Below are positions 4,543-4,716 of a stretch of DNA of 19,979 nt, one piece after another. How positions within the stretch are numbered: position 1 is the first letter of the stretch; each line of letters begins with the position of its first letter. The translations under genes and the position numbers were made by a program. Origin of the DNA: Escherichia coli. GTDB lineage: Bacteria; Pseudomonadota; Gammaproteobacteria; Enterobacterales; Enterobacteriaceae. The notes beneath the pieces are model-generated. The model was not told the DNA's origin and ran no database searches. It saw only the letters and a program-made list of their open reading frames with translations. Where the stretch lies: the NCBI RefSeq assembly GCF_003334315.1, contig NZ_QOWR01000070.1; one strand, written 5' to 3'.

Positions 4543-4716
4543 TTAGCAGGCGCGTATCCTCGCAGATCTACGCTCACGATGCGACAATTTAATCGGTTCT
4601 TCATCGGGTGGTGGGTCAGGCATGGGTTGCGGGCGAGGGATCGGATCGGGCACTGGAACAGGATCGCCAGGAATCGGTTCAGGGACAGGAATTTGCAAAT
4701 AAATAAGTGTCGTCAT
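4543..4716 (-). CDS. Candidate small proline-rich ORF (57 aa) between the FnrS terminator and dbpA: MTTLIYLQIPVPEPIPGDPVPVPDPIPRPQPMPDPPPDEEPIKLSHRERRSARIRAC
   Basis: ATG preceded by AGAGGG (Shine-Dalgarno-like) 4 nt upstream; ORF ends 30 nt before the dbpA start on the same strand; below the 60-aa cutoff of the ORF track. No homology evidence; could be non-coding. Confidence 0.3.
   Translation of the reverse strand: MTTLIYLQIPVPEPIPGDPVPVPDPIPRPQPMPDPPPDEEPIKLSHRERRSARIRAC

What the first reader, a model, noticed from the sequence alone, without database searches (positions are those of the whole stretch)
4543..4716. Unlisted 57-codon proline-rich ORF with a PPP motif immediately upstream of dbpA
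On the minus strand, between the FnrS terminator and the dbpA start, an ATG with an AGAGGG Shine-Dalgarno opens a 57-aa frame dominated by P-x-P repeats and containing DPPPD. It ends 30 nt before dbpA. Consecutive prolines are classic EF-P-dependent ribosome stalling sites, so this could be a small protein or a regulatory leader peptide coupling dbpA expression to translation status. It could equally be non-coding repetitive DNA. I recall an old sRNA call (C0343) in the zntB-dbpA intergenic region that may correspond to this stretch, but I am not certain. It falls below the 60-aa cutoff of the ORF track.
Basis: inference. Interest (0 to 1): 0.5.

Follow-up and report, generated by a model that had tools for sequence, protein, structure and literature searches.

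The report
Known small protein gene ynaL
The 57-codon proline-rich reading frame upstream of dbpA is real, but it is the already published and annotated E. coli small-protein gene ynaL (the former "sRNA" C0343); it is an independent gene rather than a dbpA leader peptide, and its last 17 codons lie on top of the dbpA promoter.

Summary
It is not new. It is ynaL (b4743), named "proline-rich small protein YnaL" in RefSeq. It is the founding member of Pfam PF23677 (E = 2e-40). VanOrsdel et al. 2018 published the identical sequence and detected the protein by chromosomal SPA tagging. The C0343 recollection is correct.

Comparing about 80 Enterobacterales species adds three points.
- The Pro-x-Pro core (codons 13-40) is under strong protein-level selection (pS 0.63, pN 0.11).
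- ynaL follows fnrS, not dbpA. In Erwinia, Pantoea, Mixta, Cedecea and others it ends in its own terminator facing a convergent ttcA, with no dbpA present.
- In the E. coli lineage, codons 41-46 and 50-57 are frozen at synonymous sites (pS 0.10 and 0.00). They coincide with the promoter of the published dbpA transcription start (Kim 2012), which lies in ynaL's last sense codon.

The dbpA-leader idea is therefore not supported. PPP is common (72 of 81 species) but is lost in E. albertii. EF-P dependence was not tested, and the biochemical role is unknown.

The parts
4543..4716 (-). ynaL coding sequence (b4743), 57 codons plus TAA: proline-rich small protein YnaL
   Evidence: ORF. RefSeq CDS at the same coordinates. 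Pfam YnaL PF23677 matched over residues 1-57, E = 2.2e-40. Identical to the published YnaL sequence.
4721..4726 (-). Shine-Dalgarno AGAGGG, 4 nt before the ATG
   Evidence: A GGAG(G) box at this position is conserved in nearly all orthologues.
4748..4775 (-). Inferred ynaL promoter: -35-like TTGCCT (4775-4770), fused to the FnrS terminator T-run; 16-nt spacer; -10-like TACCCT (4753-4748). Predicted start near 4741-4742.
   Evidence: The conserved block CTAnnCTTAA and the TTGCC box appear in the alignment. The geometry TTGnnn-(16-18 nt)-TAnnnT lies 25-37 nt before the ATG in 60 of 81 species, against 2.3 expected from shuffles. Not experimentally confirmed: no start site was listed there in Kim 2012, and it falls below the threshold of the consensus scan.
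4681..4713 (-). Variable N-terminal codons 2-12
   Evidence: pS 0.72 and pN 0.56 among 25 dbpA-adjacent species, close to neutral. Not alignable across genera.
4597..4680 (-). Conserved Pro-x-Pro core, codons 13-40 (EPIPGDPVPVPDPIPRPQPMPDPPPDEE), including DPPPD at 4617-4603
   Evidence: Codon positions 1 and 2 are nearly invariant and position 3 varies by 0.3-0.7 across about 80 species. pS 0.63, pN 0.11. dN/dS is 0.13 over all species. PPP is present in 72 of 81 species.
4579..4596 (-). Codons 41-46 (PIKLSH) = CCGATTAAATTGTCGCAT, the upstream (-35 region) block of the dbpA promoter
   Evidence: Synonymous sites are constrained: pS 0.098, against 0.63 in the core. The block is retained in Kluyvera, where the ynaL core is deleted. 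It is part of the promoter sequence listed for the dbpA start site in Kim 2012.
4549..4569 (-). Codons 50-56 (RSARIRA) = AGATCTGCGAGGATACGCGCC: the extended -10 of the dbpA promoter (TGcGAGGAT, 4564-4556) plus a GC-rich discriminator
   Evidence: All three codon positions are invariant in 25-28 species, pS 0.000. The block is kept after premature stops and in Kluyvera. It aligns with TCTGCTACACT upstream of dbpA in Erwinia and Winslowiella. It lies directly upstream of the mapped start site.
4547..4547 (-). Published dbpA transcription start site (the G of the ynaL Cys57 codon TGC); the 34-nt dbpA 5'UTR runs 4547-4514
   Evidence: Kim et al. 2012, supplementary file 2: start site 1407501 in version-2 coordinates, 126 reads, 5'UTR 34 nt. 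Converted using the fnrS offset of +1976 and checked against the window sequence.
3140..4513 (-). dbpA (GTG start), the downstream neighbour; context
4778..4895 (-). FnrS sRNA, the conserved upstream neighbour of ynaL; terminator stem 4801-4782
   Evidence: Rfam RF01796, 134.8 bits. Terminator scan. fnrS-ynaL linkage in about 85 species.

Best explanation
The interval is ynaL, a real, translated small-protein gene that is already known. It is not a dbpA leader and not an sRNA.

What the product looks like (shown or predicted). It is a 57-aa peptide. Its functional part is an acidic Pro-x-Pro repeat of about 30 residues, predicted to be extended and non-globular.

The ancestral arrangement (shown by comparison). 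In most Enterobacterales the gene is a self-contained unit placed right after fnrS: a promoter-like box, a strong Shine-Dalgarno sequence, an ORF of 45-55 codons ending ...DPDPxPIIDPPPH, then a hairpin terminator shared with a convergent ttcA.

The E. coli arrangement (shown by comparison plus a published start site). In the Escherichia, Salmonella, Citrobacter, Enterobacter and Klebsiella lineage, dbpA and its promoter sit directly after the core. The original tail and terminator are gone. The frame now reads through dbpA promoter DNA, giving ...PIKLSHRERRSARIRAC, and the dbpA transcription start falls in the last sense codon.

Inferred steps. (a) ynaL has its own sigma-70 promoter overlapping the FnrS terminator. 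(b) With no terminator after ynaL in E. coli, some ynaL transcripts probably read into dbpA, but dbpA expression does not depend on them. (c) DPPPD should make YnaL synthesis EF-P-dependent. (d) The protein acts through its polyproline-type core, and its partner is unknown.
For: Identity: RefSeq annotates ynaL at these exact coordinates, and the region is present in 5393 of 5426 complete E. coli genomes. Pfam YnaL PF23677 matches at E = 2.2e-40. All 120 listed hits of the 231 database homologues carry PF23677, and the named ones are Enterobacterales, many called YnaL.

Translation: SPA-tag immunoblot and tetracycline ribosome profiling (PMC6001520). RIBOseq ribosome coverage value of 2.49, plus the RNAcode reassignment of C0343 (PMC5331693).

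Coding selection: core pS 0.63, pN 0.11; dN/dS 0.13 over 81 species; per-codon table.

Independence from dbpA: the fnrS-ynaL-terminator-convergent ttcA layout without dbpA occurs in more than 20 genera. The Kluyvera deletion keeps the dbpA promoter. The dbpA start site lies inside ynaL.

Tail as DNA element: pS is 0.000 for codons 50-57 and 0.098 for codons 41-46, but 0.51 in the 9-nt spacer between them. Stop positions in the tail vary: 49-50-aa forms exist, and Klebsiella reads further. The tail uses the rare codons AGA, AGG and ATA.

ynaL promoter geometry: 60 of 81 species against 2.3 expected.

No structured RNA: z = +1.07, and no Rfam match other than FnrS.

Structure prediction: AlphaFold2 gives an extended chain, pTM 0.26, with only a helix at residues 46-56.
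Against: No transcription start for ynaL is listed in the one dataset that covers the region. Its promoter therefore rests on conservation alone, and ynaL could instead be expressed by read-through of the FnrS terminator. The 81 species are related, so the 60-of-81 count overstates the number of independent observations. The TACCCT -10 matches only 3 of 6 consensus positions, and the tool's consensus scan found no promoter. The exact -35 of the dbpA promoter is unclear: TTGTCG sits 20 nt from GAGGAT. No terminator separates ynaL from dbpA in E. coli, so a bicistronic transcript and some translational coupling cannot be excluded. No function, partner or phenotype for YnaL was found in the literature searched. 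The tail could have acquired a protein-level role as well, since AlphaFold2 predicts a helix there.
Confidence: 0.85

Rival explanations
1. Regulatory leader peptide. Ribosome stalling at DPPPD, relieved by EF-P, would control translation or transcription of dbpA on a ynaL-dbpA mRNA, coupling a ribosome-assembly helicase to translation status.
For: DPPPD combines the strongest known EF-P-dependent contexts (DPP, PPP, PPD; established knowledge from Peil 2013 and Starosta 2014, PMC4176338, listed). The gap to dbpA is only 29 nt and there is no terminator in between. PPP is kept in 72 of 81 orthologues.
Against: The mapped dbpA start site is in the last sense codon of ynaL, so the main dbpA mRNA lacks the ORF. 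The core and PPP are conserved in many genera with no downstream gene at all, only a terminator and a convergent ttcA. Kluyvera deleted the ORF and kept the dbpA promoter. E. albertii and several Citrobacter have DPSPD. The PPP codons lie about 90 nt upstream of the dbpA ribosome-binding site, and the transcript shows no excess structure that could link the two.
Confidence: 0.07
2. Non-coding element: the old sRNA call C0343, or repetitive DNA that happens to be open in one frame.
For: It was historically annotated as sRNA C0343. The sequence is repetitive and low in complexity. The 3' third really is conserved as DNA.
Against: The core shows a coding substitution pattern with dN/dS about 0.1 while dS is saturated. 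The Shine-Dalgarno sequence and ATG are conserved. There is published tagging and ribosome-footprint evidence. There is no Rfam match and the fold z-score is +1.07. C0343 was removed from Rfam and from the MG1655 record.
Confidence: 0.02
3. ynaL has no promoter of its own. It would be the coding tail of a longer FnrS transcript, expressed by read-through of the FnrS terminator, so that YnaL is made under anaerobic, FNR-activated conditions and works together with FnrS.
For: fnrS and ynaL are tightly linked, about 55-60 nt apart, in roughly 75 species. No separate ynaL start site appears in Kim 2012. The putative -35 overlaps the terminator T-run.
Against: The FnrS terminator is strong: an 8-bp stem with 5 GC pairs, followed by 8 T. 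A -10-like box with correct spacing to a TTG box is conserved, and the TTG box moves together with a 10-nt insertion in Erwiniaceae. YnaL was detected in ordinary LB cultures. fnrS exists without ynaL in Serratia, Yersinia, Rahnella, Hafnia and Dickeya.
Confidence: 0.06

Closest known systems
YnaL (E. coli b4743; Pfam PF23677 'Protein YnaL-like'; NCBI 'proline-rich small protein YnaL'; formerly sRNA C0343)
   Same: It is this gene: identical sequence and coordinates, and a full-length Pfam match.
   Different: Nothing differs. This analysis only adds the comparative anatomy: a conserved core and a lineage-specific tail lying over the dbpA promoter.
TonB polyproline spacer (Pfam TonB_N PF16031; NCBIfam NF008084)
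   Same: Alternating X-Pro repeats with acidic residues. Such repeats are expected to form a rigid, extended polyproline-II rod.
   Different: The similarity is only compositional: E = 0.75 in Pfam, and 20.8 bits against a cutoff of 315 in NCBIfam. YnaL has no membrane anchor and no C-terminal domain. It is not homologous to TonB.
Ribosome-arrest or leader peptides that regulate a downstream gene (SecM, TnaC, and amino-acid attenuator leaders such as hisL and trpL)
   Same: A short ORF upstream of a gene, enriched in one difficult-to-translate residue, with a potential stall motif (PPP).
   Different: The downstream gene has its own start site inside the ORF. The family is mostly monocistronic with nothing downstream. 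The stall motif is not universally kept. No alternative RNA structures were found.
Coding sequence overlapping a neighbouring gene's promoter (an intragenic promoter with constrained synonymous sites)
   Same: Codons 41-57 are frozen at all three positions and coincide with the -35 region, extended -10 and discriminator of the mapped dbpA start site.
   Different: Here the direction of evolution appears reversed. The ORF extended into pre-existing promoter DNA after losing its own tail and terminator, rather than a promoter arising inside an old gene. This rests on the Erwiniaceae layout.

Membership tests
YnaL (Pfam PF23677 / RefSeq ynaL) | Significant full-length match to the family profile | tested here: met
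   residues 1-57 against model positions 1-57 of 57, E = 2.2e-40, 136.8 bits. 24 of 32 aligned orthologues match at E <= 0.001.
YnaL (Pfam PF23677 / RefSeq ynaL) | Same locus and sequence as the gene named ynaL in E. coli K-12 | tested here: met
   b4743 at 1409308-1409481 corresponds to window 4716-4543, and the window is identical to MG1655 over 4960-4440. The sequence is identical to Table 1 of PMC6001520.
YnaL (Pfam PF23677 / RefSeq ynaL) | The protein product is actually made | not testable with these tools
   Literature only: chromosomal SPA-tag immunoblot and tetracycline ribosome profiling (PMC6001520), and a RIBOseq ribosome coverage value of 2.49 (PMC5331693).
Regulatory leader / arrest peptide for dbpA | The ORF lies on the mRNA of the regulated gene, upstream of it | tested here: not met
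   The published dbpA start site is at window 4547, inside the last sense codon of the ORF. A minor read-through transcript is not excluded.
Regulatory leader / arrest peptide for dbpA | The ORF co-occurs with the regulated gene across species | tested here: not met
   The ORF is present without a downstream dbpA in Pantoea, Erwinia, Mixta, Cedecea, Pluralibacter, Siccibacter, Franconibacter, Phytobacter and others. dbpA is present without the ORF in Kluyvera.
Regulatory leader / arrest peptide for dbpA | The stall motif is invariant | tested here: not met
   PPP is present in 72 of 81 species. It is replaced by PSP in E. albertii and three Citrobacter, and absent in Mangrovibacter.
Regulatory leader / arrest peptide for dbpA | Alternative RNA structures or a terminator link ORF translation to downstream expression | tested here: not met
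   No terminator-like site lies between the ORF and dbpA. The fold z-score is +1.07.
Small regulatory RNA (C0343) | Match to a curated RNA family, or conserved or stable secondary structure | tested here: not met
   The only Rfam hit in the region is FnrS. The fold is no better than shuffled sequence. The substitution pattern is coding.
EF-P-dependent polyproline protein | Contains a strong XPP/PPX stall motif | tested here: met
   DPPPD at residues 34-38.
EF-P-dependent polyproline protein | Reduced synthesis or ribosome pausing at the motif in cells lacking efp | not testable with these tools
   No paper links ynaL with EF-P. ynaL is absent from the held part of the EF-P/EfpL pause tables.
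TonB-type polyproline region | Significant profile match and the TonB domain architecture | tested here: not met
   Pfam TonB_N E = 0.75. NCBIfam TonB 20.8 bits against a cutoff of 315.

The most novel reading that the evidence does not exclude
The fnrS-ynaL pair may be a conserved two-gene module in which the Pro-x-Pro peptide has a specific cellular partner or role tied to anaerobic physiology or to translation capacity (EF-P). In the E. coli lineage the peptide would have been rebuilt by fusing its core to a translation of the dbpA promoter, so that ynaL transcription and translation pass through, and could modulate, the promoter of a ribosome-assembly helicase.
Probability: 0.1. Interest if true: 0.55.

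Novelty: already known. Interest (0 to 1): 0.2.

Why it matters
As a discovery it does not matter much, because the gene is in RefSeq, Pfam and the literature.

The comparative result has practical value for anyone working on ynaL or dbpA.
- ynaL's last 17 codons contain the dbpA promoter and transcription start. A full ynaL deletion, or the 3'-end SPA-tag and marker insertions used to detect YnaL, will therefore also disturb dbpA transcription.
- A clean ynaL mutant should be a start-codon or early-stop change.
- Only the Pro-x-Pro core (residues 13-40) is under protein-level selection, so function should be sought there.
- The gene's conserved partner is fnrS, not dbpA.

Tried and rejected
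- The consensus promoter scan of window 4400-5100 found no sigma-70 promoter. Both promoters discussed here fall below its 4-of-6 hexamer rule, so the dbpA promoter rests on the published start site and the ynaL promoter on conservation.
- I looked for a ynaL transcription start in four sources: Kim 2012 (none listed), Cappable-seq and SMRT-Cappable-seq supplements (the held text does not cover the region), and the ROSE supplement (no occurrences). The Thomason 2015 and RNAcode papers are not held.
- The VanOrsdel supplements are not held. A guessed PMC id for Weaver 2019 turned out to be an unrelated paper.
- For EF-P dependence, no paper mentions ynaL together with EF-P, and ynaL is absent from the stored EF-P/EfpL pause tables.
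- The solved-structure search found nothing meaningful; the best E-value was 0.27.
- TonB similarity was rejected as compositional.
- The antisense 78-aa ORF on the plus strand (4525-4761) was rejected. Its codons are in exact register with ynaL's (plus-strand codon 4714-4716 is the complement of ynaL codon 1). The freely varying ynaL third positions are therefore its first positions, so it is not conserved as protein (reasoned).
- An amino-acid-attenuator reading (a proline-rich leader) was rejected, because in most genera nothing lies downstream except a terminator and a convergent gene.

Full report
OBSERVATION. On the minus strand of the window, an ATG at 4716 opens a 57-codon frame that ends with TAA at 4545-4543. 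It encodes MTTLIYLQIPVPEPIPGDPVPVPDPIPRPQPMPDPPPDEEPIKLSHRERRSARIRAC, with 16 prolines. AGAGGG lies 4 nt upstream of the ATG, and DPPPD is encoded at 4617-4603. FnrS (Rfam RF01796, 134.8 bits) occupies 4895-4778, and its terminator stem is at 4801-4782. The dbpA GTG is at 4513, 29 nt after the stop. An ORF of this size is not significant on its own, since one search lists 50 ORFs of at least 30 aa in 4 kb.

IDENTITY. The window is identical to E. coli K-12 MG1655 over 4960-4440. RefSeq annotates exactly this ORF as ynaL (b4743, 1409308-1409481), 'proline-rich small protein YnaL', between fnrS and dbpA. The region is present in 5393 of 5426 complete E. coli genomes. The protein matches Pfam family YnaL (PF23677) end to end at E = 2.2e-40.

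VanOrsdel et al. 2018 (PMC6001520) list the identical 57-aa sequence. They detected the protein by chromosomal SPA tagging and note that it was also positive in tetracycline-inhibited ribosome profiling. Neuhaus et al. [quoted passage not shown] They say this validates the RNAcode prediction of a 57-aa protein, and that C0343 was removed from Rfam. C0343 is no longer in the MG1655 record.

COMPARATIVE ANATOMY. I used the conserved core of FnrS as a DNA anchor and fetched 120 loci, one per species, from Enterobacterales. A YnaL-like ORF with a GGAG-type Shine-Dalgarno sequence lies about 55-60 nt after the FnrS terminator in roughly 75 species and farther downstream in about six more. These span Enterobacteriaceae, Erwiniaceae and some Pectobacteriaceae. 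No such ORF follows fnrS in Serratia, Yersinia, Rahnella, Hafnia, Edwardsiella, Dickeya, Brenneria, Photorhabdus or Kluyvera.

The alignment shows three zones: a variable N-terminus, a conserved core (consensus SDPvPTDPVPiPDPIPRPQPxPDPPPD), and two unrelated tails. The Escherichia, Salmonella, Citrobacter, Enterobacter and Klebsiella group ends ...EEPIKLSHRERRSARIRAC. Most other genera end ...DPDPxPIIDPPPH. The database search found 231 homologues; all 120 listed carry PF23677, and those with names come from Enterobacterales.

SELECTION. In the core, codon positions 1 and 2 are almost invariant while position 3 varies freely. dN/dS is about 0.13 over 81 species, with dS saturated. Among 25 species of the E. 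coli-type group the gene splits into sharply different segments:
- N-terminus, codons 2-12: pS 0.72, pN 0.56, near neutral.
- Core, codons 13-40: pS 0.63, pN 0.11, purifying selection on the protein.
- Codons 41-46: pS 0.10, pN 0.05.
- Codons 47-49: pS 0.51, pN 0.47.
- Codons 50-57: pS 0.000, pN 0.04.

Synonymous sites that never change, in species whose core is saturated with synonymous changes, indicate a nucleotide-level element rather than a constrained peptide. The tail's stop position also varies. Kosakonia, Pseudescherichia and Enterobacter cloacae have 49-50-aa forms, while in Klebsiella the frame reads on to later stops (K. indica four codons further; in K. oxytoca past the dbpA start), and the DNA after the early stops is still conserved. 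The tail uses the rare codons AGA, AGG and ATA.

THE TAIL IS THE dbpA PROMOTER. An alignment of the 130 nt upstream of dbpA shows two frozen blocks separated by a variable spacer of about 11 nt: CCGATTAAATTGTCGCAT and AGATCTGCGAGGATACGCGCC. They lie about 45-80 nt before the GTG. Both blocks persist in Kluyvera, where the proline-rich core has been deleted. In Erwinia, Winslowiella and Buttiauxella, where dbpA is not adjacent to ynaL, the second block aligns with TCTGCTACACT, an extended -10.

Kim et al. 2012 (PMC3415461, supplementary file 2) mapped the dbpA transcription start at 1407501 in old coordinates, with 126 reads and a 34-nt 5'UTR. The promoter sequence they list, ACCGATTAAATTGTCGCATCGTGAGCGTAGATCTGCGAGGATACGCGCCTG, is ynaL codons 41-57. 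I converted the coordinate using the fnrS offset and checked it on the sequence. The start is the G at window 4547, inside the Cys57 codon. The main dbpA mRNA therefore does not contain the ynaL ORF.

ynaL AS AN INDEPENDENT GENE. In genera with the ...IIDPPPH tail, the stop is followed within a few to about 130 nt (usually under 40) by a GC-rich hairpin flanked by A/T runs, and then by a convergent ttcA. dbpA is absent from that position.

Upstream, the fnrS-ynaL spacer contains a conserved TTGCC box fused to the terminator T-run, and a near-universal CTAnnCTTAA block. The -10-like hexamer is TACCCT in E. coli and TATGCT in Erwinia and Pantoea. The geometry TTGnnn-(16-18 nt)-TAnnnT lies 25-37 nt before the ATG in 60 of 81 species, against 2.3 expected from shuffles. 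In Erwiniaceae the TTG box moves together with a 10-nt insertion.

This ynaL promoter is an inference. The tool's consensus scan does not call it. Kim 2012 lists no start site there. The species are not independent samples. In E. coli no terminator follows ynaL, so some read-through into dbpA is likely.

LEADER-PEPTIDE AND EF-P IDEAS. The evidence against a dbpA leader is as follows. dbpA has its own start site inside the ORF. The ORF is conserved without dbpA downstream, and dbpA is conserved without the ORF. PPP is lost in E. albertii and three Citrobacter (DPSPD) and in Mangrovibacter, although it is present in 72 of 81 species and duplicated in 26. The transcript is no more structured than shuffled sequence (z = +1.07). 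DPPPD is a strong EF-P-dependent context by established knowledge, so YnaL synthesis is probably EF-P-sensitive. However, no data on this were found.

WHAT THE PROTEIN IS LIKE. AlphaFold2, run with the family alignment, gives an extended chain without regular secondary structure up to residue 45 and a short helix at 46-56 (pLDDT 83.8, pTM 0.26). This fits a polyproline-type rod rather than a globular fold. No solved structure is related. Similarity to the TonB proline spacer is only compositional. No function, partner or phenotype is reported in the searchable literature.

VERDICT. That matters mainly for the design of ynaL and dbpA mutants.

Noticed in passing
window 4549-4564 (-), dbpA promoter: The mapped dbpA start lies 9 nt after the GAGGAT hexamer, behind an 8-nt GC-rich discriminator (ACGCGCCT). 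From my own knowledge, this resembles the rRNA P1 promoters that respond to ppGpp/DksA and to initiating-NTP levels. It may indicate growth-rate control of this ribosome-assembly helicase.
   Followed up: no
window 5988-6035 (-): RefSeq annotates a 15-codon ORF, ynaN ('protein YnaN', b4773), 13 nt upstream of zntB. It is another small gene below the first stage's 60-aa cutoff.
   Followed up: no
window 3058-3096, both strands: A palindromic REP-like element lies between the convergent dbpA and ttcA stops. It gives sub-threshold Rfam naRNA4 hits of 29 and 25 bits against a gathering score of 59.5.
   Followed up: no
L045 and L088 (Kluyvera), about 150-250 nt after the FnrS anchor: The proline-rich core of ynaL is cleanly deleted, but both dbpA promoter blocks are retained directly after the FnrS terminator. 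This is a natural ynaL knockout with dbpA intact.
   Followed up: partly
L109 (Leclercia adecarboxylata NCTC13032): Only a 26-codon remnant (MPDPPPDEVPIKMSHQRQRSARIRAC) is open in the ynaL frame. The N-terminal part appears frame-disrupted, whereas another Leclercia (L108) has an intact 60-aa gene. This may be a strain-level pseudogene or a sequencing error.
   Followed up: no
H30, NZ_CP087578.1 (E. coli OSUCMP42NDM): In this genome only 52% of the fnrS-ynaL-dbpA query matches in one piece, there are two matching places, and no ynaL is annotated. The locus is probably interrupted by an insertion or rearrangement.
   Followed up: no
L007 and L080 (Erwinia persicina, E. phyllosphaerae), about 500-1420 nt after the FnrS anchor: In these two Erwinia the ttcA-like gene after ynaL is on the same strand as ynaL, a 297-aa form starting [22 protein letters not shown]. 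In other genera it is convergent. In E. phyllosphaerae dbpA follows it; the E. persicina locus shows no dbpA match. The ynaL-ttcA-dbpA neighbourhood has been rearranged repeatedly.
   Followed up: no
window 4543-4548 (-), literature design: The SPA tag used to detect YnaL was inserted at the 3' end of the ORF. That is between the dbpA -10 element and the dbpA gene, so the ynaL-SPA strain probably has altered dbpA transcription.
   Followed up: no
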